Positions 18,167 to 50,864 of a stretch of 50,864 bases of DNA are shown here, piece after piece. Position 1 is the stretch's first letter. Each line of letters opens with the position of its first letter. Origin of the DNA: a virus (lineage: Duplodnaviria > Heunggongvirae > Uroviricota > Caudoviricetes); the IMG/VR virus record IMGVR_UViG_2695420685_000015. One strand, written 5' to 3'. The notes under the pieces were generated by a model. That model searched no databases, was not told the DNA's origin, and worked only from the letters and a program-made list of their open reading frames with translations. Position numbers and translations under genes: made by a program.

Positions 18167-18182
18167 GTAAGTACATACTTAC
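18167..18182. promoter_or_regulatory. class-B palindrome copy
   Basis: gtaagtacatacttac perfect palindrome, 44 nt upstream of ATG 18226. Confidence 0.45.
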
Positions 18183-22083: not shown

Positions 22084-22608
22084 TCAAAAAGGCAAAATTC
22101 GTTCAACCCAATCGAACAAAACAACTATTTTTCTACCGTTCTCGACACGTAGTGTAACCTGACAAGCATCTGCGCCTGCTGACACCCCCTCAATTTCACG
22201 GCCATCCGCCATGTACACCCTTATAGATTTGTTTGCTTTGTAGGCTTGGTTGCAAATTGCAAAAAAATCGCGGCGTGATGGCCGATTATCGACATAATCA
22301 GGGTGAACTGTTAGTCGACCTTTGAAATCGTGAGCGATACTGTCAACCACACCTGATTCAATTGTACTAATGCGTTCAAGTGGGAGCCTTATACGATTTT
22401 CTTTGTCAAAAGGGGCTGGGCAAAGGTCAACTTTGTTACGAGATGGCATGAGGCCATAAACGTACATGCAAAACGCCTGGCCATCTTCGAGAGTGACCCT
22501 TACAGGAATTTGTTCTCTGCGCCAGAACATCAGTAGTTTTTCAACGTTAGTGTAATCTCGCGGCCAGAGTTCAGCTTGGATACCGTAGGTAATATCTTTG
22601 GTTGTCAT
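22084..22608 (-). CDS. hypothetical protein
   Basis: Start set at MTTKD ATG 5 nt after upstream stop (track start 22686 overlaps upstream gene); 174 aa. Confidence 0.5.
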   Translation of the reverse strand: MTTKDITYGIQAELWPRDYTNVEKLLMFWRREQIPVRVTLEDGQAFCMYVYGLMPSRNKVDLCPAPFDKENRIRLPLERISTIESGVVDSIAHDFKGRLTVHPDYVDNRPSRRDFFAICNQAYKANKSIRVYMADGREIEGVSAGADACQVTLRVENGRKIVVLFDWVERILPF

Positions 22609-22612
22609 GTCA

Positions 22613-23077
22613 TCACAGAGTTGTTGGCAGAATGTCGATGTCACCAGAATTGCTGGTGAACACCCTGAACGCTTTTGTGTCTCCATTCTTCAGAGTCGTT
22701 TCTCGCTCTTGACGAGCGGGGTTTAGAGCACATAAACCTGCACCTTCAAGAGATGCACCCACAATTAATTCTCCGGCATTTAAATGGAAAGTCGCTTTTT
22801 CGCCTGTAGCCAGTTTTGCGACAGTTTCGCCGTTGATGAAAATGGAAGCATCACATCCAGCTCCTACAAAACCTGTGTCTCTCATTACCACCAACGTAGC
22901 TGGCGCTGCGCTTTGATACTTGAACACTTTGGCCTGCGGTGCTGGTTTGGCGTCATGGATTGATATTGGGCGTGATTGGCACGCGGTAAGCATCAACACT
23001 GGTAACGTTAGTAGAGGGAGAAGCGAGTATTTCATGATAGTTTTAGAACAGAAAGTGAACAGTATGGGAGACTTCAT
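22613..23077 (-). CDS. predicted lipoprotein
   Basis: MKYSLLPLLTLPVLMLTAC signal peptide with LTAC lipobox; start may be ATG 23035 rather than 23077. Confidence 0.6.
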   Translation of the reverse strand: MKSPILFTFCSKTIMKYSLLPLLTLPVLMLTACQSRPISIHDAKPAPQAKVFKYQSAAPATLVVMRDTGFVGAGCDASIFINGETVAKLATGEKATFHLNAGELIVGASLEGAGLCALNPARQERETTLKNGDTKAFRVFTSNSGDIDILPTTL

Positions 23078-25007: not shown

Positions 25008-25026
25008 AGTGGATTGTAGCAATAAA

Positions 25027-25707
25027 ATGGATGTAAAAATCACGATTTTGCAGGTTGATGTTGCCAACCTTCGCCCGAATACCTGGAACACCAATTCGGT
25101 TGGTGCGCAGAATTTTGAAAAACTGAAAGGTTCTATCGAAAAATTGGGCTTTTTTAAGCCAATTTTGGCTCGTGAACTTGAAGATGGATTTTTTGAAATC
25201 CTCGGCGGCGAACATCGCTGGCGTGCTGCTATTGAGCAAGGAATTTCAACGGTTCCGGTGCTTTCTGTGGGCAAAATTAGCGATGTCGTAGCTAAACAGA
25301 TGTCACTGGTGGACAACGAGCGATACGGTGAAGACGACCAAATCGCATTGCAACGCTTCATTGAAGAAATTCAGTCAGAACTTGACTATCAACTGTCTGA
25401 AATCGCCCCGTATGACGACGAAATCTCGATGGTTTTAGCAAAAGAGGCGGCAATCGACCTTGAAGCACTGGAGGCGTTGTCTCGTGGTAGTGATGAGCCT
25501 GTCGATACCGACAAACGAGAGAAAACCGAACGTGTGGGTGCGGAACATCAGACCATGCGCTTCAAAGTAACTTTCGATGCGTCAGATCGTGTTGCAGAAA
25601 CCATAAAAAACATCATCAAAGAGCAGGCTATTAACACCGGTAATGAAATGGAGAACGCTGGTGAGGCTCTGGTGTGGCTGGTCGACTACTACAAGGAGCG
25701 TATGTAA
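25027..25707 (+). CDS. ParB-like nuclease-domain protein 1
   Basis: ParB/Srx N-domain pattern KPILARELEDGFFEILGGEHRWRAAIEQGISTVPV; start ambiguous (GTG 25009 or ATG 25027). Confidence 0.6.
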   Translation: MDVKITILQVDVANLRPNTWNTNSVGAQNFEKLKGSIEKLGFFKPILARELEDGFFEILGGEHRWRAAIEQGISTVPVLSVGKISDVVAKQMSLVDNERYGEDDQIALQRFIEEIQSELDYQLSEIAPYDDEISMVLAKEAAIDLEALEALSRGSDEPVDTDKREKTERVGAEHQTMRFKVTFDASDRVAETIKNIIKEQAINTGNEMENAGEALVWLVDYYKERM

Positions 25708-26375
25708 TGACCAAAAAGTTTGAAATCGTATATCGCGACCCGGCAGATCTTATTCCCTATGAGATGAATGCCAAAAAGCATGATGAACAGCAGATCCGAG
25801 ATCTAGCCGCAGCCATTAAAAAGCGCGGATTTGACCAGCCAATTACGGTCGATAAGAACGACGTAATTATTACTGGCCACGGCCGCCGTGAGGCTGCAAT
25901 TTTTGCTGGACTTGAGCGCGTACCGGTTATTGTTCGCGATGATCTCAGTGATGACGAGGTTCGTGCGAAGCGCCTTGAAGATAACCGACTTGCCAGCATT
26001 GATTACGATGCAATTAAGCTACAGAAAGAGCTTGAGTCGCTTGTTCTGGACGATATCGAGGTTTTCGGCTTTGAAGAGCGTGAGTTGAATGTTCTCGTTG
26101 GCAGTATGACAGAAGAAATGGACACCGACTCGCTAGTTATCGATCTTGGCGAAGAAACTAAACGACAGAAGGATGAACACACCGAGATCAGTCGTGAAGT
26201 TGCAGCGGAAGAAGTACGTGTTGTCGACGTATTGGGCTTTAAAACGCTCCCTGCTGGCTCTGCCATTGTTGTTGGTGATTTGCTTGCCCACATGGAAGAA
26301 ATGACGGGAGAAAGCGGGGTAGACGCATTTGTGGCATATGCGGAGAAGATCTCTTCCGGGGAGATGGCTGCATGA
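25707..26375 (+). CDS. ParB-like nuclease-domain protein 2
   Basis: ATG overlaps upstream TAA; ITVDKNDVIITGHGRREAAIFAGLERVPVIV fits the ParB GxxRxxA box. Confidence 0.6.
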   Translation: MTKKFEIVYRDPADLIPYEMNAKKHDEQQIRDLAAAIKKRGFDQPITVDKNDVIITGHGRREAAIFAGLERVPVIVRDDLSDDEVRAKRLEDNRLASIDYDAIKLQKELESLVLDDIEVFGFEERELNVLVGSMTEEMDTDSLVIDLGEETKRQKDEHTEISREVAAEEVRVVDVLGFKTLPAGSAIVVGDLLAHMEEMTGESGVDAFVAYAEKISSGEMAA

Positions 26376-27037
26376 GCAAATACATCATCAACGTATCGTT
26401 TCAGACACGCGTAAATAAAACCACGCGCACGTTGGAAATCGCTGAGTCGTTCGGGCTTGGCCTGGACGAAAAAGAGTGGACGCTTTACGACAATCTGGAG
26501 CTGGAAGTGAAGCAGGGCGATGTGGTGTACATCACCGGCCAATCCGGTTCCGGCAAATCCGTTGTGCTGCGCGAGTTGCAACGACAGATGAAGGATGAAG
26601 GGCTGTCTGTAGCCTCCATCGATGATTTTACCTTCGATAATGAGGTTAACGTCATCGATCAGTTGGGCAAAACGACCAGTGATGCGCTTGGGTTGTTATC
26701 TATGGCTGGTCTGAACGATGCATATCTGTTTGTTCGCAAGCCTTCTGAAATGTCAGACGGCCAGAAATATCGTCTCAAGATTGCCAAACTGATTGAGTCA
26801 GGCGCTAAAGTGTGGGCTGCTGACGAGTTCGGCGCTGTTCTCGACCGTGTAACCGCTCAGGTTGTGGCGTCTAACCTCCAGCGTGCCGCTCGAAAGGTTG
26901 GTGCGACGGTAATGGTGGCGACGACTCACGAAGACCTGAAGAACGCGCTGCGCCCGGATATGCAGATCACCAAGCACTACAAAGAACGCGTGAAGGTGGA
27001 ATATCACAATGGTAGTCACGATGAGGTCCATTCATGA
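26372..27037 (+). CDS. ABC-type P-loop ATPase
   Basis: Walker A GQSGSGKS, signature-like MSDGQKYRLKIA, Walker B VWAADEFG; 221 aa; coupled ATGA start. Confidence 0.65.
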   Translation: MSKYIINVSFQTRVNKTTRTLEIAESFGLGLDEKEWTLYDNLELEVKQGDVVYITGQSGSGKSVVLRELQRQMKDEGLSVASIDDFTFDNEVNVIDQLGKTTSDALGLLSMAGLNDAYLFVRKPSEMSDGQKYRLKIAKLIESGAKVWAADEFGAVLDRVTAQVVASNLQRAARKVGATVMVATTHEDLKNALRPDMQITKHYKERVKVEYHNGSHDEVHS

Positions 27038-27924
27038 CGGACATCATCATTAAACGCTACCGCCCTGAAGAGTTTCCGCGTCATCTGGACTTTCTGGAGC
27101 GAATGACTGTTACAAAGGGAACTGTAGAGGACTGGCACGCTCTTAAGTCGCTTCACTACAAAACAGACGGCAAACCTTTCGCGCCAACTTACTATCGCTG
27201 CGAACTTGATGACCGTCTGGTGGGCGTCGTGGTTATGGCTTACCCGAAACTACTGTTGGCACCTCGCCACCGCATGTTTCCTAAGTTGAAACCAACCACT
27301 AATACCACCGTGGCTAACCAGTACTGGGGTCGGTACGTGAATAACAACTTTGCGGTGATCAGTCGCTCAGTTGTGGATACTCAGTATCGTGGCGTAGGCG
27401 TCTCTTATCGAATGATTAACCTGGTTAGCAGGATGCATGACCGGCCAATCATTGAGATCCAGTCCTCGATGAGCAAATACAATCCCTTCGCCATGAAAGC
27501 AGGGTTTAAGTTCATCCGCCCTGAGCGACCGAAGAGCTATGAAAGTGCACTGCGTGTATTCCAGCGCCATTTCCGTTCCGACCCGGGTGATAACGAGGCG
27601 ATCGTCAAAGAGTTGTTCGCAATGAGCGAGTCTCGTCGTCGCCGTGCACTGCGTGATCTGGTGGCGGACTACCACAAGAACAGTTCCCTGGCAAAAGCTG
27701 GGCGGAATCGTGGCACGACGATTCAGGACATTGCCGACAGTCTGGTGGACGAGGCCAGCATTGTGAAGTTGCTCAAGGACATTCACAACCTGAGCTTTAC
27801 GTCTCCGTTGTATGGGGTGTATCGAAACCCTGACTTTGGTCGTCGACTGCCTGACACGCTGCCACTGCTGGCATTCGACAAACAACCTTTGGATAAACCG
27901 TTAGAAATTGCTTTACCGGCATAA
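27034..27924 (+). CDS. hypothetical protein (possible acetyltransferase-like N-terminal region)
   Basis: 296 aa; YRGVGVSYRMINLV loosely resembles GNAT motif A; weak. Confidence 0.45.
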   Translation: MTDIIIKRYRPEEFPRHLDFLERMTVTKGTVEDWHALKSLHYKTDGKPFAPTYYRCELDDRLVGVVVMAYPKLLLAPRHRMFPKLKPTTNTTVANQYWGRYVNNNFAVISRSVVDTQYRGVGVSYRMINLVSRMHDRPIIEIQSSMSKYNPFAMKAGFKFIRPERPKSYESALRVFQRHFRSDPGDNEAIVKELFAMSESRRRRALRDLVADYHKNSSLAKAGRNRGTTIQDIADSLVDEASIVKLLKDIHNLSFTSPLYGVYRNPDFGRRLPDTLPLLAFDKQPLDKPLEIALPA

Positions 27925-27933
27925 GGATTTGCC

Positions 27934-28200
27934 ATGACGTTAACCGATAAACAAAAGGACATCATCAAAACGCTCAATCTCGGTTATGAGCGAGGTCATC
28001 TACTTGATCTGGACGAATTGCTTGAAGTTTTGCCGTACAAGACAACCAAGCAAAGTATCCAGTTCTCAATTCGCGCTCTGATAAAAAAGGGGCTTGTGGA
28101 GAAAGGGCATACGCGCCAACGCAGTGACAATCGCTATCACCGCCGAACTCTTGGGTTAACCACTTTAGGTCGAGCCAAAGCGAAGTTACTGGTGATGTAA
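27934..28200 (+). CDS. small putative DNA-binding protein
   Basis: 88 aa, basic C-terminal half, AAGGAT RBS. Confidence 0.45.
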   Translation: MTLTDKQKDIIKTLNLGYERGHLLDLDELLEVLPYKTTKQSIQFSIRALIKKGLVEKGHTRQRSDNRYHRRTLGLTTLGRAKAKLLVM

Positions 28201-28244
28201 TCGGTCTGGGAGCTTATTTAAAGACCTGCTTCTGTATATAAATA

Positions 28245-28259
28245 ATAAGTAACTTATTA
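28245..28259. promoter_or_regulatory. class-B palindrome copy
   Basis: ataagtaacttatta upstream of terminase promoter region. Confidence 0.4.
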
Positions 28260-28313
28260 AATATATACGGAAGCAGGCTTAATAAGACATGCCCAGACCT
28301 AATTAAACAACCC

Positions 28314-28355
28314 AGAAAACAAGTTGGTTAGAAAATGCAGTAAACAAGTTGTTTT
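28314..28355 (+). promoter_or_regulatory. class-A motif pair upstream of terminase small subunit
   Basis: AGAAAACAAGTTGGTT at 28314-28329 and AAACAAGTTGTTTT at 28342-28355. Confidence 0.5.
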
Positions 28356-28386
28356 AGAGCGCATGGACGCGCTCTGTGTGTTTTAG
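28356..28386 (+). terminator. promoter-proximal terminator-like hairpin in terS leader
   Basis: agagcgcatggacgcgctct hairpin followed by gtgtgtttt, about 10 nt before ATG 28395. Confidence 0.45.
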
Positions 28387-28394
28387 AGGGATCT

Positions 28395-29027
28395 ATGACG
28401 GTCGAAAAAGACGAGGTAAAAACTCGCCTGACACCAGCGGAGTGGGCCGAAGCTGAAGCCAAATGGACGTCAGGCGAATATACACTCTCAAAGCTGGAGG
28501 AAGAGTACGGCATTCGTCGTGAAACACTCTCCAGACATTTCAAAAAGCGAGGATTAGAGAAAGGCGCGGACTCTGTTGGGAAGATGGTTCGTGAGTCTCT
28601 TAAATCTGACGCAGAGCTTCGCGCTAAAGCCCGTGCGGAAAAGATAGAAGAACGTCGTACACGTTATGACGGCTGGGCGTATGCGTTGGGGCAGATGGTG
28701 ATGGTCGAAGTCACTACGGCCAAACGTGAGGGTAAGCCTTTAGGGGCGATTGAGGATTCTCTCAAGAGCTTACAGAGAGCCAGTAATACCCTTGCAAAAT
28801 GCTTTGAAGTTTCGTCCAAAGCATTGGGCATGGATCATGCGGAAAATGACGAGGAAGAAATTCCGAACCTGGTATTTGGTGAGCTTACGCCTTCCCAGGT
28901 GGCGAAATTACGTCAGGAAGACGACGAGCCTGAAATCATCGATGACGAATTGCTTGAGACGTTGGAAGAAGAAGCTCTAAGCGAATTTGATGCGACAGAT
29001 GATGGAAGTGAAGGGGAGGACGAATAA
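28395..29027 (+). CDS. terminase small subunit
   Basis: 210 aa, N-terminal HTH-like segment, highly acidic C-terminus, immediately upstream of and coupled to the large subunit. Confidence 0.7.
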   Translation: MTVEKDEVKTRLTPAEWAEAEAKWTSGEYTLSKLEEEYGIRRETLSRHFKKRGLEKGADSVGKMVRESLKSDAELRAKARAEKIEERRTRYDGWAYALGQMVMVEVTTAKREGKPLGAIEDSLKSLQRASNTLAKCFEVSSKALGMDHAENDEEEIPNLVFGELTPSQVAKLRQEDDEPEIIDDELLETLEEEALSEFDATDDGSEGEDE

Positions 29028-30309: not shown

Positions 30310-31884
30310 ATGGAATTGAACGACAAACAAATTAAGGATCTGGTGGCGCGACGCCACCCGGAATACGAAAAGAAAAAAGAACATTGGGACTTCCTCGCCA
30401 GCACTTACGCTGGCGGGCGTGGTTGGTTTACAGACAATATCTTTCGTTACTTTAAAGAGGGAGATCAGGAGTTTAAGGAGCGAGTTGAGCGTGCTTATCG
30501 CTTCAACCACACTCGTGAGGTGGTAAACCTCATCAACAAATATCTCTTTAAAGAAGACATTCATAGAAATATCGAAGAGGCACCAGAGCAGATCCGCAAT
30601 TTCTGGAAACGTGCGACTCGCCAGAATGCCTCTATTGACTCATTTATGGCCGCTATTGATTTGCAGTCGTCTATTTACGGTCGCATATGGGTTGTTGTCG
30701 ATAGCACGATGAGTGGTGATGTTGAGTCAGTAGCTGACGAGAAAAAGAAAGATGCTCGCGCCTACGCCTACTGGATTTCACCTCAGCAAATGCTGGATGT
30801 GGCATGGGACGACGACGGGAATATGTTGTGGGCGTTAATTGTGGAAGTCGCTCGTGATGACGCAGATCCTTTTACTTCTACAGGTCAGGAATACCAACGT
30901 TATCGTCTGTGGACACAAAACGAGTGGTATCTGTTCCGTGAGGAAGTGAAGAAGGGCGCTGGTGGAGCAGGTCGCCGTCAGGCAAAAGTTATTTTAGAGG
31001 ATAGCGGTGAGCATAATCTCGGCGTAGTTCCTGTGTTTCCTGTTGATTGTATTGGAGAAAGTGAATCACCGTATTTCAGCCCATCGTTGATCGATGATAT
31101 CGCTTATCTTGATCGTGCGGTTGCAAACTATCTGTCAAACCTTGATGCCATTATTCAGGATCAGACATTTAGCCAGTTGGCTATACCGGTACAGTCGCTT
31201 TTACCTGGTGATGAAAACCACACTAAAGTGCTTGAAATGGGCACAAAGCGAGTCTTCACCTACGATTCTGAAGGTGGAAACCAGCCGTTTTATTTGTCAC
31301 CAGACCCGAAACAAGCTCAGATGATCATCACTACGATTAAGACGGTGATTAACGAAATCTACCATTCAGTTGGTGTCGCTGGTGAGCGAACGAAGCAGGA
31401 CAACGCACAGGGAATTGATAACTCATCTGGTGCCGCAAAAATGTATGACTTCCAGCGTGTAAATAGCTTGCTTGTCACAAAAGCAGAGCGTCTGGAAAGG
31501 GCTGAACGCCAAATCATGCTACTGGTTGCGAAATGGATGGGGGTAGATCTGGACGAAGACCACTCTTTAATTGCGTATCCAGAAAGTTTCGATATTCGTG
31601 GCCTTACAGATGAATTTTCTGTTGCCGAGAAACTGTCATTACTTCAGGCACCGGACTCTGTACGTCGTCACCAGATGGAAATGCTTATTGAGAAGATTTT
31701 CCCGAACATTACTGAGGCGATGAAAAAGGAATTTGATAAAGATCTCTTGAATTTTCCGCCAAAAAATGATCTAAACACCCTTGAAAATAAGTCAGTACTT
31801 ACTTATGATCGTGGTGCAGCCCAAGAAAGCGGGCAAGATCAACCCCGAGGGAATGGGGACTCATCTACTCAAGAGAACGAGTGA
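30310..31884 (+). CDS. portal protein
   Basis: 524 aa, position between terminase and scaffold, acidic C-terminus. Confidence 0.7.
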   Translation: MELNDKQIKDLVARRHPEYEKKKEHWDFLASTYAGGRGWFTDNIFRYFKEGDQEFKERVERAYRFNHTREVVNLINKYLFKEDIHRNIEEAPEQIRNFWKRATRQNASIDSFMAAIDLQSSIYGRIWVVVDSTMSGDVESVADEKKKDARAYAYWISPQQMLDVAWDDDGNMLWALIVEVARDDADPFTSTGQEYQRYRLWTQNEWYLFREEVKKGAGGAGRRQAKVILEDSGEHNLGVVPVFPVDCIGESESPYFSPSLIDDIAYLDRAVANYLSNLDAIIQDQTFSQLAIPVQSLLPGDENHTKVLEMGTKRVFTYDSEGGNQPFYLSPDPKQAQMIITTIKTVINEIYHSVGVAGERTKQDNAQGIDNSSGAAKMYDFQRVNSLLVTKAERLERAERQIMLLVAKWMGVDLDEDHSLIAYPESFDIRGLTDEFSVAEKLSLLQAPDSVRRHQMEMLIEKIFPNITEAMKKEFDKDLLNFPPKNDLNTLENKSVLTYDRGAAQESGQDQPRGNGDSSTQENE

Positions 31885-33725: not shown

Positions 33726-33757
33726 AAAGGGTGGGCTATACGCCCACCCTTTTTGTA
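33726..33757 (+). terminator. strong rho-independent terminator after major capsid gene
   Basis: aaagggtgggctatacgcccacccttt followed by ttgt. Confidence 0.75.
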
Positions 33758-33767
33758 GGAGCGAGAA

Positions 33768-34688
33768 ATGCCAGAACAAAAGATGAAGATTACGGAAGAG
33801 GCATTTTCGGATTTTACGGGGCATATGTGCCGTGCCGGATTTACCAATTCTATCTCCGATGAACCTTTAACCGAGCGGCAACAAAGTCAGCTATCTGCTT
33901 GTTTGCAGGCGGTTCCCCTCTCCCAATCCGTAAACATAACCCCGGCTTCACCGTCAGTTTTGGTTGGGAAAACTGTTCAACTTAGTGCAGGTATTAGTAT
34001 GGGTAAGAGTGCCAGTTCATTCACCTGGAAGTCAGCCAATGACCAAATTGCAACCGTTAACGGCACTGGATTAGTAACTGGCGTAGCACCAGGCAAAGTA
34101 AAAATTACTGCAACTGATCAGGAAACCCAGCTTTCCGCTTCAGTGGAAGTCACCGTAAATCCGGTAGCCGTTCAATCCGTAACGGTAACGCCAGAATCAA
34201 CGTCTGTTGAGAAAGGGAAATCAGTCAGTCTGAAAGCGAATGTTCAGCCGTCAAATGCGACGAATAAGGCTGTTACCTGGTCTTCCAAAAATGAAGATAA
34301 GGCAACGGTAGACCAGAGCGGGAACGTTACTGGTGTAGAAGTTGGCACTGCGACGATTGAGATCGTTTCCCAAGATGGCAGCAAAAAGGCAACTGCAACG
34401 GTGGAAGTAACTGCGCCTGTTGTGGCTGTTACCGGCGTCGAAATCGACCCAAATAGCACAACCGTTGAGGCAAACAAAACTGTTCAGCTGACAGCAAATG
34501 TCGAGCCGGCAGGAGCCACAAATAAAACCGTTACTTGGGAATCCAAAAATACCGAGTTTGCAACGGTTGACAGCGAAACCGGTGTTGTAACTGGTGTTGC
34601 GGCTGGTACTGCCACAATCGAGGTTACTACCCAAGATGGTAGCCACAAAGCGACAGCAACTGTAGAAGTTACTGCCGCACAGGAATAA
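33768..34688 (+). CDS. Ig-like (Big_2) domain protein, probable capsid decoration protein
   Basis: Three tandem ~85-aa repeats of the V-T-V-x-P...ATV-x-V-T pattern characteristic of bacterial Ig-like group 2 domains. Confidence 0.65.
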   Translation: MPEQKMKITEEAFSDFTGHMCRAGFTNSISDEPLTERQQSQLSACLQAVPLSQSVNITPASPSVLVGKTVQLSAGISMGKSASSFTWKSANDQIATVNGTGLVTGVAPGKVKITATDQETQLSASVEVTVNPVAVQSVTVTPESTSVEKGKSVSLKANVQPSNATNKAVTWSSKNEDKATVDQSGNVTGVEVGTATIEIVSQDGSKKATATVEVTAPVVAVTGVEIDPNSTTVEANKTVQLTANVEPAGATNKTVTWESKNTEFATVDSETGVVTGVAAGTATIEVTTQDGSHKATATVEVTAAQE

Positions 34689-37280: not shown

Positions 37281-37298
37281 AGTAAGTATATACTTACT
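37281..37298. promoter_or_regulatory. class-B palindrome copy
   Basis: agtaagtatatacttact perfect palindrome, 50 nt upstream of major tail ATG. Confidence 0.45.
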
Positions 37299-38107: not shown

Positions 38108-38133
38108 AGAGGCTCAGGATGAGCCTCTCTTTT
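38108..38133 (+). terminator. terminator between major tail and chaperone genes
   Basis: agaggctcaggatgagcctct then cttttaaaa. Confidence 0.6.
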
Positions 38134-38149
38134 AAAAGGATTTTAACCA

Positions 38150-38467
38150 ATGACCAAATTACTCGATCTCGATTCCATTCTGCCTCCGAAGAAAAGCATC
38201 AAATTTGGCGGTCAGGAATATCCCATCGTTGAAATGACGGTAGGTTTGTTCGTTTCCATCAAGCAGATGGAAGGCAAAGATCTCATGAACATGTCTCCTG
38301 TTGAGCAAGTGACAGCTTATGCAGATCTGGTTCGTAAGGTTATCCCTTCAGTGCCTGATGAAGTTCTTGAAAAACTGACTGTTCCGCAACTCCAGCAGAT
38401 CTTCACCTTCGCTATGGAAGTGATTGATGAAGAAAACGAAAAAGCGGCTGGCGAAGGGGCAAAGTAA
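38150..38467 (+). CDS. tail assembly chaperone (lambda G-like)
   Basis: 105 aa, acidic C-terminus, position between major tail and tape measure. Confidence 0.65.
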   Translation: MTKLLDLDSILPPKKSIKFGGQEYPIVEMTVGLFVSIKQMEGKDLMNMSPVEQVTAYADLVRKVIPSVPDEVLEKLTVPQLQQIFTFAMEVIDEENEKAAGEGAK

Positions 38468-50692: not shown

Positions 50693-50711
50693 ATAAGTAT
50701 GTACTTACTTA
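50693..50711. promoter_or_regulatory. class-B palindrome copy after J
   Basis: ataagtatgtacttactta followed by hairpin ggtgggcaaggatagcccacc and an AAGGAG RBS. Confidence 0.4.
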
Positions 50712-50864
50712 ATGGTGGGCAAGGATAGCCCACCAAATCAAGGAGCATATTCATGTACTGACCCCAAAAAGTTGGACAGTTAAACACGAGGCATATAGGT
50801 CTGATTCCGATATTCAATTGGAGTCAGACCTTTTAATTTCAGGCTAATTCTTCTGCTGTTGTAG

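What the first reader, a model, noticed from the sequence alone, without database searches (positions are those of the whole stretch)
28314..28394. Terminator-like hairpin between promoter motifs and the terminase start codon
Downstream of two class-A motifs and 10 nt before the terS ATG lies a GC-rich hairpin followed by GTGTGTTTT. A promoter-proximal terminator ahead of the late packaging operon would imply antitermination or attenuation control of late gene expression.
Basis: seen in the sequence. Interest (0 to 1): 0.45.

Follow-up and report, generated by a model that had tools for sequence, protein, structure and literature searches.

The report
Conserved leader hairpin before phage terminase genes
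A small, evolutionarily conserved RNA hairpin sits just before the DNA-packaging genes of an SSU5-like phage-plasmid; distant relatives carry a textbook transcription terminator at this spot, but this lineage has lost most of the terminator tail and kept a GGA-containing loop, so it more likely tunes late-gene expression at the RNA level than acts as a strong stop signal.

Summary
A GC-rich hairpin (28355-28376, -12.4 kcal/mol) followed by TGTGTTTT ends 10 nt before the terS ATG, directly after two copies of the palindrome AAACAAnTTGTTT. The window is an SSU5/Cyrano-type phage-plasmid. The hairpin is a selected plus-strand RNA structure: 100% pairing in 9 variants, 3 of 6 pairs with two-sided changes, and a wholly different stem with a G.U pair in a sister lineage. 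In distant relatives (terS 30-48% identical), 41 of 57 leaders carry a terminator-like hairpin at this position (29 clearly canonical, GGGCGY..RCGCCC + T7-9), against 0-2 of 57 at control positions. It lies downstream of a near-consensus sigma-70 promoter overlapped by a palindromic operator. In the window's own clade the U-tract is eroded (here UGUGUUUU; worse or absent in sister lineages; score far below the phage's own terminators). What is invariant is the stem and a loop A-N-GGA-N, 24 nt before a second GGA in the SD. That is a CsrA-type two-site layout, and it recurs at two other late junctions. No antiterminator gene was found. The 'class-A motifs' are operator-like palindromes, not promoter hexamers. 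Verdict: weak attenuator plus RNA-level control element; a new member of a known kind.

The parts
27934..28200 (+). p88: an 88-aa winged-helix DNA-binding protein encoded immediately upstream of terS. Candidate regulator of the upstream palindrome.
   Evidence: It matches phrog_900. A profile of 20 homologues hits MarR-family structures (2eb7, E=3e-4) and Pfam HTH_27, MarR_2 and LexA_DNA_bind. It is syntenic with terS from Enterobacteriaceae to Alpha- and Betaproteobacteria. It is not related to P1 Lpa.
28203..28299 (.). Large imperfect palindrome with 48-nt arms, 73% complementary, between the p88 stop and the terS leader.
   Evidence: I1. Its core is repeated at least three times in the Cyrano genome and once in another plasmid, upstream of the helicase/primase operon. 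The SSU5 and Cyrano linear records begin inside it.
28246..28256 (.). Core palindrome TAAGTAACTTA. It contains AAGTAACTT, which resembles the P1 late-promoter -22 box AAGTTACTT.
   Evidence: TAAGT-N0-6-ACTTA occurs 5 times in the window against 0.26 expected, upstream of late genes. The P1 LPhot box was read. It corresponds to the TAAGTCA-N-TGACTT operator that overlaps the -35 in distant relatives.
28262..28267 (+). TATATA, a -10-like hexamer 6 nt after the core palindrome. Candidate late promoter.
   Evidence: Sequence. AAGTnACTT-ATTAAA-TATATA is conserved in SSU5 and Klebsiella pJN2-26. Promoter function is inferred.
28298..28303 (+). CCTAAT, a weak -10-like hexamer at the position where operator-type promoters elsewhere have TGnGATAAT.
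   Evidence: From the alignment of promoter contexts. It lies 13 nt before AAACAA, as at sites 2013, 14067, 17280 and 18718.
28317..28329 (.).
28342..28354 (.). Operator-like palindrome copy 2, AAACAAGTTGTTT, directly abutting the hairpin.
   Evidence: It arose by a 25-bp tandem duplication (D1). Klebsiella relatives and L006/L007 have a single copy.
28355..28376 (+). The leader RNA hairpin UAGAGCGC-AUGGAC-GCGCUCUG. Core stem 28357-28362 with 28369-28374; loop GGA at 28365-28367.
   Evidence: dG -12.4. Covariation and G.U pairs place it on the plus-strand RNA. The stem core GxGCGC/GCGCxC is shared with the distant-clade terminator stem GGGCGC/GCGCCC.
28377..28384 (+). U-rich tail UGUGUUUU, a degenerate terminator tail.
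   Evidence: Tail score 2.29 and d = -20.9. The window's own terminators have tail scores of about 4-5 and d > 0. The tail is variable or absent in relatives.
28386..28391 (+). Shine-Dalgarno GAGGGA with the second GGA at 28389-28391, 24 nt from the loop GGA.
   Evidence: UAGAGGGA(U/A)CUAUG is invariant in 13 variants.
28395..29027 (+). terS, the terminase small subunit, 210 aa. First gene of the late packaging and structural operon.
   Evidence: Cyrano CYRAN_1 is annotated as terminase small subunit.
38108..38128 (+). Second late-operon hairpin of the same design: AGAGGCUC-AGGAU-GAGCCUCU, then CUUUU, SD AAGGAU and the ATG at 38150.
   Evidence: The stem covaries in four relatives; the loop has GGA in 3 of 5 variants.
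50713..50735 (+). Third late hairpin of the same design: UGGUGGGC-AAGGAUA-GCCCACCA, no U-tract, SD AAGGAG 19 nt downstream, before the tail-fibre gene.
   Evidence: The stem covaries, the loop GGA is kept in 4 of 4 variants, and none of them has a U-tract.
33729..33754 (+). For comparison: a canonical intrinsic terminator inside the late operon, GGGTGGGC-TATAC-GCCCACCC-TTTTT, after the major capsid gene. The next ATG is at 33768.
   Evidence: (d = +32).

Best explanation
The stem-loop at 28355-28376 is a selected RNA hairpin in the 5' leader of the late packaging operon (terS, terL, portal and onward) of an SSU5/Cyrano-type phage-plasmid.

Origin. It most likely descends from a leader terminator that is ancestral to this phage family. 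More distant relatives have the order: palindromic operator overlapping a near-consensus sigma-70 promoter, then a leader of about 30 nt, then a canonical intrinsic terminator (GGGCGY..RCGCCC plus 7-9 U), then SD and terS. The window's stem shares the GxGCGC/GCGCxC core and the same distance to the start codon.

Present state. In the Enterobacteriaceae lineage the U-tract has eroded, so here the element can at best act as a weak attenuator. It would trim transcription that enters from the weak late promoter(s) or from the upstream parB-to-p88 operon.

What selection keeps. Selection keeps the stem and a hexaloop A-N-GGA-N closed by C-G, 24 nt upstream of a second GGA inside the SD. That is the layout of a CsrA/RsmA-type two-site target. 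I therefore propose that a GGA-binding protein, most probably host CsrA, bridges the loop and the SD and so sets how much TerS is translated. It may also affect whether the hairpin forms. The same design recurs before two other late genes, at 38108 and 50713.

Shown: existence, conservation and covariation, plus-strand RNA character, position in the leader, positional and stem-core correspondence with canonical terminators, the weak and non-conserved tail, the invariant GGA, and recurrence of the design.

Inferred: the transcription start upstream of the hairpin, weak termination, descent from the ancestral terminator, and CsrA (or any protein) binding.
For: Identity: the window is 99% identical to Escherichia phage CMS-2020a and Cyrano and about 80% to SSU5.

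Hairpin. Covariation: 100% of cells paired, 3 of 6 pairs changed on both sides, 0 of 500 shuffles reach the score. L006, L007 and L060 have a different stem, GGCGUC/GAUGCC, with a G.U pair.

Family-wide leader terminator: of 57 distinct distant leaders, 29 score d>0 and 41 score d>-26 in the last 60 nt before terS, against 0-2 of 57 at four control positions. A promoter precedes the terminator by a median of 30 nt. The same holds in L016, L018, L019, L024 and L026.

Weak tail here: d = -20.9, against 0 to +36 for about 16 of the window's own terminators. The tail is variable or absent in relatives while UAGAGGGA(U/A)CUAUG is invariant.

Loop: GGA is present in 13 of 13 terS variants. CAUGGACG, CAAGGAUG and CAAGGAAG fit the CsrA SELEX core CARGGAUG and the hexaloop rule, and the 24-nt spacing lies within the 10-63 nt bridging range (PMC7652899).

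Recurrence: two more conserved GGA-loop hairpins lie 21 and 19 nt before GGA-containing SDs. One of them never has a U-tract.

Precedent: CsrA represses an SOS-induced plasmid lysis gene, ColE7 cel (PMC2896534, abstract listed). Cyrano is itself SOS-inducible (PMC9928086).
Against: No experiment bears on this locus. No transcription start, 3' end or binding data exist, and I found no transcript-mapping (TSS or 3'-end) data for this leader.

The stems (6-8 bp, -10 to -12 kcal/mol) are stronger than typical CsrA SELEX hairpins, which mostly have 4 or fewer contiguous pairs.

A GGA in an SD is trivial, and a GGA in a 6-nt purine-rich loop has roughly a 5-8% chance per hairpin. GGA loops are not enriched genome-wide (18 of 273 hairpins). 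At the second hairpin two of five relatives have AUGAU or AUGAC instead.

The E. coli version of the tail, with 6 U in 8, could still terminate a useful fraction of transcripts, so the transcriptional role may be larger than I assume.

The d-score is my own re-implementation with modern energy parameters and is only calibrated internally.

Morganellaceae-hosted relatives have lost the hairpin altogether, so it is dispensable in some backgrounds.
Confidence: 0.42

Rival explanations
1. The hairpin plus UGUGUUUU is an efficient promoter-proximal intrinsic terminator. Late genes are switched on when a phage-encoded, processive antiterminator (Q- or N-like, or of a new type) lets RNA polymerase read through it and through the internal late terminators.
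For: The family-wide promoter, leader, canonical terminator, terS layout. There is no room for a promoter between the hairpin and the SD. The late operon also contains a strong internal terminator abutting the next SD at 33729, and a weaker one at 38109. The window's d = -21 exceeds about 97% of control windows. The P1 literature likewise suspects unidentified antiterminators in a phage-plasmid (PMC10695390).
Against: The tail is weak here and not conserved. Sister lineages keep the hairpin with no U-tract at all. The loop GGA is under stronger constraint than the tail. No antiterminator is annotated in Cyrano. There is no ops site and no known RNA family. The upstream promoter signals in this clade are weak and operator- or activator-type, unlike the constitutive promoters that usually go with antitermination. 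Several TAAGT-N-ACTTA late-promoter-like sites inside the late region reduce the need for processive read-through.
Confidence: 0.25
2. A protein-independent RNA element. The hairpin stabilises or shapes the late mRNA (a barrier to RNase E or exonucleases, or a processing site), or it presents an SD-like AAGGA loop as a ribosome standby or enhancer site. No dedicated RNA-binding regulator is involved.
For: The structure is conserved with compensatory changes. The loops AAGGAU, AAGGAA and AAGGAUA are SD-like. The same design occurs right before three late genes, including one with no terminator tail. Hairpins after the capsid and tail-tube genes are in the classic position for differential mRNA stability.
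Against: A pure stability hairpin should not need an invariant GGA. A 5' stabiliser normally has to sit within a few nt of the 5' end, whereas every candidate promoter lies at least 45 nt upstream. This reading cannot be told apart from the CsrA model by sequence alone.
Confidence: 0.15
3. An insulator terminator. Its job is to stop transcription coming from the upstream parB, ABC-ATPase, p296, p88 operon from leaking into the late genes in the plasmid (lysogenic) state. It has nothing to do with regulated read-through.
For: The upstream genes are on the same strand and end 155 nt before the hairpin, with no canonical terminator in between. Leaky terminase expression would plausibly harm a plasmid prophage.
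Against: In more than 25 relatives the terminator lies downstream, not upstream, of the dedicated terS promoter. That order is wrong for a pure insulator. The weak tail makes it a poor insulator here. This reading does not explain the invariant loop GGA.
Confidence: 0.1
4. A DNA-level site. GAGCGC-N6-GCGCTC is a palindromic binding site for a protein, such as TerS at a pac or cos site, or a regulator, and not an RNA structure.
For: It is a perfect 6+6 inverted repeat immediately upstream of terS, where pac or cos sites often lie. It abuts an operator palindrome.
Against: The half-site sequence is not conserved but the pairing is: GAGCAC/GTGCTC, CGGCGC/GCGCCG, GGCGTC/GATGCC. This includes G.U pairs that would be G-T mismatches in a DNA cruciform and C.A on the other strand, and the loop length changes between 5 and 6. 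That is the signature of plus-strand RNA pairing, not of sequence-specific DNA recognition.
Confidence: 0.03

Closest known systems
Lambda late control: PR' promoter, 6S leader RNA, tR' terminator and Q antiterminator
   Same: A promoter is followed within tens of nucleotides by an intrinsic terminator that every late transcript must cross before the first packaging gene. In distant relatives of this phage the match is close: a near-consensus promoter, a leader of about 30 nt between the -10 and the stem, giving a terminated transcript of roughly 50-60 nt, and a strong terminator.
   Different: No Q-family gene is annotated. In the window's clade the promoter is weak and operator-laden, the terminator tail is degenerate and not conserved, and the loop carries a conserved GGA. 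The promoter in distant relatives is overlapped by a palindromic operator, which lambda PR' lacks.
CsrA/RsmA two-site translational repression (E. coli glgC leader; ColE7 cel lysis gene)
   Same: One GGA sits in the loop of a hairpin (hexaloop ANGGAN closed by C-G) and a second GGA overlaps the SD, 19-24 nt apart, within the 10-63 nt bridging range (PMC7652899). ColE7 cel is a precedent for CsrA control of an SOS-induced extrachromosomal operon (PMC2896534).
   Different: The stems here are longer and more stable than typical CsrA hairpins. No binding or genetic data exist. The hairpin appears to derive from a terminator. Three late phage genes share the design, and CsrA control of phage late genes has not, to my knowledge, been described.
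Phage P1 late promoters (Lpa-dependent: 9-bp inverted repeat at about -22 plus a -10) with lpa encoded just upstream of pacA/pacB
   Same: AAGTAACTT upstream of terS matches the P1 LPhot box AAGTTACTT as AAGT-N-ACTT, with a -10-like TATATA 6 nt downstream. A small DNA-binding protein gene (p88) occupies the lpa position directly before the packaging genes. Related palindromes precede several late genes.
   Different: There is no Lpa homologue, and p88 is an unrelated winged-helix protein. The exact 9-mer is not enriched (2 against 0.86 expected). The other four sites have a different half-site spacing (AAGTA-NN-TACTT). P1 late promoters are not followed by a leader hairpin.
RinA-type late activation in staphylococcal phages (activator gene immediately upstream of terS)
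   Same: A regulator gene lies directly upstream of terS, there is a dedicated terS promoter region, and a terminator is inferred in the regulator-terS interval (PMC3152322).
   Different: In those phages the terminator lies between the activator gene and the promoter, acting as an insulator. Here it lies between promoter and terS. There is no sequence relationship.

Membership tests
Intrinsic (Rho-independent) terminator | Stable G+C-rich stem-loop in the nascent RNA | tested here: met
   8 bp, 5 of them G-C, a 6-nt loop, dG -12.4 kcal/mol.
Intrinsic (Rho-independent) terminator | Uninterrupted U-rich tract of about 6-9 nt starting directly after the stem | tested here: not met
   The tail is UGUGUUUU, with G at positions 2 and 4. 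Tail score 2.29 and d = -20.9. The window's own terminators have tail scores of about 4-5 and d from 0 to +36, and the distant-clade leader terminators have T7-9 and d up to +58. From memory, 2.29 also falls short of TransTermHP's default tail cut-off of 2.5.
Intrinsic (Rho-independent) terminator | Tail conserved among relatives if termination is the selected function | tested here: not met
   The tails read AGUGUUUU, UGUGUGUGUUUU, UGUGUGCUUU and GUGGUGGUUU, and there is none in L006, L007 and L060, while the stem and loop GGA are kept.
Intrinsic (Rho-independent) terminator | RNA release at the tail by RNA polymerase alone | not testable with these tools
   This needs in vitro transcription or Term-seq.
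Lambda-type Q antitermination module | Terminator between a dedicated promoter and the first late gene, with no promoter after it | tested here: inconclusive
   The order is met: the -10-like elements at 28262 and 28298 and the operators all precede the hairpin, and only 18 nt remain before the ATG. It is clearly met in distant relatives. In the window neither the promoter nor the terminator is strong.
Lambda-type Q antitermination module | A Q-family (or N-family) antiterminator gene in the genome | tested here: not met
   None appears in the expert annotation of the 99%-identical Cyrano genome. PHROG and Pfam scans of the neighbouring small proteins gave regulators only. This is a test by annotation, not an exhaustive profile search.
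Lambda-type Q antitermination module | Q-binding element at the promoter and a sigma-dependent promoter-proximal pause | not tested
   No model is available for an unknown factor.
CsrA/RsmA two-site mRNA target | GGA in the loop of a hairpin, ideally hexaloop ANGGAN closed by C-G (SELEX core CARGGAUG) | tested here: met
   The window has C-AUGGAC-G, SSU5 has C-AAGGAU-G (8 of 8 to the core) and Klebsiella has C-AAGGAA-G. GGA is present in 13 of 13 variants. The definition comes from PMC7652899.
CsrA/RsmA two-site mRNA target | Second GGA overlapping the SD, 10-63 nt from the first | tested here: met
   GGA at 28389-28391 lies in the SD GAGGGA, 24 nt from the loop GGA. The spacing is 21 and 19 nt at the two other late hairpins.
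CsrA/RsmA two-site mRNA target | Modest hairpin stability (most SELEX ligands have 4 or fewer contiguous pairs) | tested here: not met
   6-8 contiguous pairs, -9.8 to -12.4 kcal/mol.
CsrA/RsmA two-site mRNA target | Direct binding by CsrA and csrA-dependent expression | not testable with these tools
   This needs EMSA or footprinting and reporter assays.
P1 Lpa-type late promoter | 9-bp inverted repeat AAGTnACTT about 22 bp upstream of the start, with a -10 and no -35 | tested here: inconclusive
   AAGTAACTT (28247-28255) plus a 6-nt gap plus TATATA is conserved in SSU5 and Klebsiella. The exact box is not enriched in the window (2 against 0.86), and the other late palindromes have different spacing.
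P1 Lpa-type late promoter | Lpa homologue encoded by the element | tested here: not met
   tblastn of P1 Lpa against the window and the three Cyrano loci held (about 95% of the record; 71,901-77,999 was not fetched) gave a best E of 0.41. hhalign of the p88 profile against Lpa gave probability 0.07%.
RfaH/ops-dependent operon leader | ops element GGCGGTAGnnTG in the leader | tested here: not met
   No match with up to 2 mismatches lies anywhere between 27713 and 32529. Only the L006 variant carries GCGGTAG after its hairpin.
Any curated RNA family (Rfam 15) | Covariance-model match | tested here: not met
   Only chance miRNA-like hits to the long palindrome, all far below gathering scores.

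The most novel reading that the evidence does not exclude
Across the SSU5 'supercommunity' of phage-plasmids and their relatives, from Gamma- to Alphaproteobacteria, late genes are gated by a conserved module: an operator-overlapped strong promoter, a short CU-rich leader RNA and a leader terminator. It is read through by an antitermination mechanism unrelated to Q or N, perhaps involving the invariably adjacent 88-aa winged-helix protein. In Enterobacteriaceae this terminator has been converted into one of a set of GGA-loop hairpins, through which host CsrA couples virion production to the cell's physiological state.
Probability: 0.13. Interest if true: 0.75.

Novelty: new member of a known kind. 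Interest (0 to 1): 0.5.

Why it matters
SSU5-like phage-plasmids include Y. pestis pMT1, S. Typhi pHCM2 and hundreds of E. coli and Klebsiella plasmids that carry resistance genes; one search found 828 plasmid records with this very leader. They are widespread and medically relevant, yet I found nothing published on how their late genes are switched on. This analysis gives a concrete, testable map of the control region in front of the packaging genes: a candidate regulator (p88) and its palindrome, a family of operator sites, and a leader hairpin that is a true terminator in distant relatives and a GGA-loop RNA element here. If the CsrA link holds, it would connect virion production by a plasmid prophage to the host's global carbon and stress regulator. 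If antitermination holds for the wider family, a new antiterminator awaits discovery. If neither holds, the element is an ordinary weak attenuator.

Tried and rejected
1. cos or pac site. The SSU5 and Cyrano records start inside the large palindrome, but it is repeated at least three times in the genome and occurs in another plasmid upstream of replication genes, so it is not a unique packaging site.
2. RfaH ops. It was suggested by GCGGTAG after the L006 hairpin. It is absent from the window leader and from the other variants.
3. Known RNA family. Rfam gives only chance hits.
4. Leader-peptide attenuation. A 7-codon ORF, ATG GAC GCG CTC TGT GTG TTT TAG (28363-28386), exists only in the E. coli clade. 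SSU5 and Klebsiella have AAG in place of ATG, so I rejected it.
5. Anti-SD pairing in the distant clade. The CU-rich box before the terminator (32 of 42) and the CUCC loops (26 of 42) pair with the SD no better than shuffled boxes do (p about 0.8).
6. Alternative antiterminator helix between a GCCC near the start site and the terminator 5' arm. Judged by eye, it does not covary in loci with different stems.
7. p88 as an Lpa or Q homologue. It is a minimal MarR/LexA-like winged helix, and hhalign against Lpa gives 0.07%.
8. Published short transcript. The two pMT1 sRNAs (sR082, sR083; PMC3770706 Table S1) map next to ymt and an IS element, not to terS. Searches on pHCM2 gave nothing relevant.
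9. A genome-wide 'GGA-loop' class. GGA is not enriched among all 273 stable hairpins. The pattern is confined to late 5' leaders, and one of the three sites is only partly conserved.
10. An alternative long fold in the E. coli variant that pairs UUUUAGAG... with ...UUUUAGAG and would mask the SD. It is not conserved outside this clade.
11. One preprint found by the search (10.64898/2026.08.19.745698, phage-plasmid heteroresistance) could not be opened.
Full report
WHAT THE WINDOW IS. The 4 kb around the finding is 97-99.6% identical to Escherichia phages CMS-2020a, PhiR41_1 and Cyrano, and about 80% identical to Salmonella phage SSU5 and several Klebsiella phage-plasmids. The 500 bp spanning the finding matches 828 plasmid records, including Y. 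pestis pMT1-type, Salmonella pHCM2-type, Enterobacter, Citrobacter and Cronobacter plasmids. The window is therefore part of an SSU5-like phage-plasmid. Cyrano (pLF82) is a roughly 5-copy plasmid prophage that is induced 39-fold by ciprofloxacin (PMC9928086). The ORF starting at 28395 is the small terminase subunit. It is followed by TerL (Pfam Terminase_6N/3), the portal and the structural genes, all on the + strand.

THE OBSERVATION. The sequence reads TAGAGCGC-ATGGAC-GCGCTCTG (28355-28376), then TGTGTTTT (28377-28384), then AGAGGGATCT, then ATG (28395), exactly as described. The hairpin has 8 pairs, 5 of them G-C, and folds at -12.4 kcal/mol. The two 'class-A motifs' are copies of the 13-bp palindrome AAACAAnTTGTTT at 28317 and 28342, produced by a 25-bp tandem duplication. 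As a bare pattern such a hairpin is not rare, with 7 found in 5 kb against 4.7 expected, so its reality has to come from comparison with relatives.

THE MOTIFS ARE OPERATOR-LIKE, NOT PROMOTER HEXAMERS. The palindrome is enriched, with 18 sites against 4.3 expected. At seven or more early and middle genes it lies about 13 nt downstream of an extended -10 (TGnGATAAT), roughly +8 to +20 of the transcript, and is followed by SD and ATG. Three promoters have a second copy exactly 51 bp upstream. This is the geometry of a repressor operator. In front of terS the same architecture is recognisable (CCTAAT-N13-AAACAAGTTGG), but the -10 lacks the critical A at -11 and there is no TG extension. Klebsiella relatives and L006/L007 have one operator copy, and it always abuts the hairpin.

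THE HAIRPIN IS A SELECTED PLUS-STRAND RNA STRUCTURE. I collected 143 homologous leaders, 102 of them distinct, from annotated phages and plasmids, GTDB genomes, IMG/VR and metagenomes. Within Enterobacteriaceae and Yersiniaceae there are 13 distinct variants of the hairpin region. The stem is kept through G-C to A-U at pair 5 (L038, L049), G-C to C-G and A-U to G-C at pairs 1 and 2 (L015, L061, L119), and several G.U wobbles. L006, L007 and L060 have an entirely different stem, GGCGUC/GAUGCC. Only one contig (L055) breaks the stem. The formal count on nine variants gives 100% of cells paired, 3 of 6 pairs changed on both sides, and a covariation score of 0.398 against 0.234 +/- 0.04 (0 of 500 shuffles reach it), with every slid register far worse. 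G.U pairs and a loop length that changes between 5 and 6 nt argue for RNA on the + strand and against a DNA binding site. Rfam has no matching family.

THE WIDER FAMILY HAS A TEXTBOOK LEADER TERMINATOR AT THIS POSITION. The gene order ABC-ATPase, p296, p88, terS, TerL, portal is conserved out to Photobacterium, Piscirickettsiaceae, Chitinibacter, Oxalobacter, Roseospira, Methylocystis and many metagenomic contigs.

Among 57 distinct leaders whose terS is less than 50% identical to any query, 29 score d>0 and 41 score d>-26 in the last 60 nt before terS. Four control positions in the same loci give 0-2 of 57. The typical form is GGGCGY-(loop with CUCC)-RCGCCC followed by 7-9 T, with the stem ending about 18-30 nt before the start codon.

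Upstream lies a near-consensus sigma-70 promoter (TTGACA-17-TACAnT). Its -35 is overlapped by a palindrome, ATAAGTCA-N3-5-TGACTT. The -10 precedes the terminator stem by a median of 30 nt. L016, L018, L019, L024 and L026 show the same order in named genomes.

No promoter fits between the terminator and the SD, so in these phages terS can only be expressed by reading through a strong terminator. That is the lambda PR'-tR' logic. The window's hairpin sits at the same distance from the ATG (18 nt) and shares the stem core GxGCGC/GCGCxC. I take this as evidence of common descent, which is an inference.

IN THE WINDOW'S OWN CLADE THE TERMINATOR TAIL IS ERODED. I scored every hairpin with one function, a re-implementation of the d'Aubenton-Carafa d-score using ViennaRNA energies, which is valid for relative comparison only. 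The terS hairpin scores -20.9, with a tail score of 2.29. About 16 of the window's own terminators score from 0 to +36 and have uninterrupted T-runs, for example 33729, 10614, 13952, 18135, 18633 and 20328 on the minus strand.

Among close relatives the tail is AGUGUUUU (SSU5, Yersinia, Kluyvera), UGUGUGUGUUUU (Klebsiella), UGUGUGCUUU, or GUGGUGGUUU, and it is absent in L006, L007 and L060. The adjoining UAGAGGGA(U/A)CUAUG is invariant. Morganellaceae-hosted relatives have lost the hairpin.

So selection in this clade is not acting on the feature that makes a terminator work. The E. coli version is the most terminator-like of its clade. It exceeds about 97% of control windows, so some attenuation is plausible.

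WHAT IS CONSERVED INSTEAD. The loop always contains GGA: AUGGAC, AAGGAU, AAGGAA, AGGAA. It is closed by C-G, giving CANGGANG. In SSU5 the match to the CsrA SELEX core CARGGAUG is 8 of 8. A second GGA lies in the SD, 24 nt downstream. According to the review PMC7652899, high-affinity CsrA sites are GGA in a hexaloop hairpin, and a CsrA dimer bridges two sites 10-63 nt apart, classically one in an upstream hairpin and one over the SD.

The same design recurs in the late operon. The first case is 38108-38128, AGAGGCUC-AGGAU-GAGCCUCU, 21 nt before the SD AAGGAU. Its stem covaries in four relatives and GGA is kept in 3 of 5. The second is 50713-50735, UGGUGGGC-AAGGAUA-GCCCACCA, 19 nt before the SD AAGGAG of the tail-fibre gene. 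Its stem covaries, GGA is kept in 4 of 4 variants, and none has a U-tract. The fourth late junction hairpin, after the capsid gene at 33729, is a clean terminator with loop UAUAC.

There are caveats. GGA loops are not enriched genome-wide (18 of 273). The stems are stronger than typical CsrA ligands. The argument is also post hoc.

REGULATORS AND PROMOTERS AROUND IT. p88 (27934-28200) is a minimal MarR/LexA-like winged helix that is always encoded just upstream. The 97-bp palindrome that follows it has the core TAAGTAACTTA. TAAGT-N0-6-ACTTA occurs 5 times against 0.26 expected, at 18168, 28246, 31788, 37283 and 50694, four of them just upstream of late genes. It corresponds to the operator that overlaps the -35 in the distant clade.

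The core AAGTAACTT plus TATATA 6 nt later resembles P1 late promoters: the LPhot box is AAGTTACTT, and Lpa binds an inverted repeat at about -22 (PMC10695390, PMC3152322). The position of p88 also mirrors lpa before pacA/pacB. However, there is no Lpa homologue, p88 is unrelated to Lpa, and the exact 9-mer is not enriched. I therefore do not assign it to that family.

No antiterminator is annotated in Cyrano, and no ops site is present. No published sRNA or transcription start maps here. The pMT1 sRNAs sR082 and sR083 lie elsewhere.

CONCLUSION AND RANKING. Best explanation (0.42): a descendant of the family's leader terminator that now acts at most as a weak attenuator. Its selected function is as an RNA-level control element, a GGA-loop hairpin paired with a GGA-containing SD, most probably a CsrA-type two-site target. 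It is one of three such hairpins before late genes.

It is right about the architecture and, apparently, the ancestry. It is probably wrong about the present strength of the terminator and about the nature of the upstream motifs.

The element is a new member of known kinds (leader terminators and attenuators; GGA-hairpin translational operators), in a family whose late regulation I could not find described in the searchable literature.

Noticed in passing
window 50753-50864: The last 112 bases match IS150 (IS3 family) at 100% identity in many plasmids. The insertion lies between the tail-fibre SD (AAGGAG, 50741-50746) and the position of the start codon seen in Cyrano (…CATATTCAACATG). This copy of the phage-plasmid may therefore be defective for tail-fibre expression.
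   Followed up: partly
window 570, 1299, 2013, 4921, 14016, 14067, 16107, 17280, 17764, 18667, 18718, 19203, 28317, 28342: A regulon of 13-bp palindromes AAACAAnTTGTTT lies about 13 nt downstream of extended -10 promoters (TGnGATAAT). Three promoters have a second copy exactly 51 bp upstream (4921, 14016, 18667). This is probably the operator set of a phage repressor that I did not identify. Candidates are the phrog_1444 repressor at 22084-22686 (-) and CYRAN_45, which lies outside the window.
   Followed up: partly
window 28203-28299; Cyrano about 31157-31224 and about 78051-78166; L005 2500-2560: The 97-bp imperfect palindrome (core CCTGCTTCTGTATATA…TATATACrGAAGCAGG) is a repeated element upstream of three operons (terS, helicase/primase, CYRAN_80). 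It is nearly identical in another E. coli plasmid (NZ_CP024264.1). The SSU5 and Cyrano linear records begin inside the terS copy, probably as an assembly or orientation convention.
   Followed up: partly
window 18168-18181, 31788-31801, 37283-37296, 50694-50707: 14-bp palindromes TAAGTA-NN-TACTTA lie upstream of a gene at about 18233, of the gene after portal, of the tail-tube gene (true start 37348, not 37312) and of the tail-fibre gene. Together with the 11-bp terS variant at 28246 the relaxed pattern gives 5 matches against 0.26 expected by chance. They are candidate late-promoter or activator sites, possibly bound by p88.
   Followed up: partly
window 33729-33770: A strong canonical terminator (GGGTGGGC-TATAC-GCCCACCC-TTTTT) sits directly after the major capsid gene and only 13 nt before the next gene's ATG. 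All downstream head and tail genes therefore depend on read-through, or on the internal palindrome-associated promoters.
   Followed up: partly
window 28350-28359 and 28379-28388: There is an exact 10-nt direct repeat TGTTTTAGAG, so the left arm of the hairpin mimics the SD region. In the E. coli variant RNAfold prefers a long G.U-rich alternative helix that would mask the SD (-18.5 kcal/mol). This is not conserved in other clades.
   Followed up: partly
distant-clade loci such as L102, L133, L124, L139 (14 nt before the terminator stem, and the loop): Two CU-rich UCUCC-type elements, anti-SD-like, flank or occupy the leader terminator: the box in 32 of 42 leaders and the loop in 26 of 42. Their pairing with the terS SD is no better than for shuffled sequences, so their role is unexplained.
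   Followed up: yes
L017, L022, L024, L026 (TerL region): In several relatives the TerL reading frame is split by an insert of roughly 0.9-1.2 kb, with tblastn hits in two blocks. This suggests an intron, intein or homing-endonuclease insertion in the large terminase gene.
   Followed up: no
L011, L015, L024 (record titles): Contigs carrying this proteobacterial phage-plasmid module are filed in MAGs labelled Bacillota, Candidatus Fimivivens and Chloroflexi. This is probably mis-binning of plasmid contigs.
   Followed up: no
window 25009-28200: A conserved five-gene block lies immediately upstream of terS: two ParB_N-domain proteins, an ABC-type ATPase, a 296-aa protein (annotated in Cyrano and in Klebsiella phages as an ABC-type ATPase fused to an acetyltransferase domain; no Pfam hit here) and the p88 winged helix. 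The ABC-ATPase, p296 and p88 part is syntenic with terS across Proteobacteria; a ParB_N homologue was recovered upstream only in some enterobacterial loci, because the flanks were short. Its function (packaging accessory or late regulation) is unknown.
   Followed up: partly
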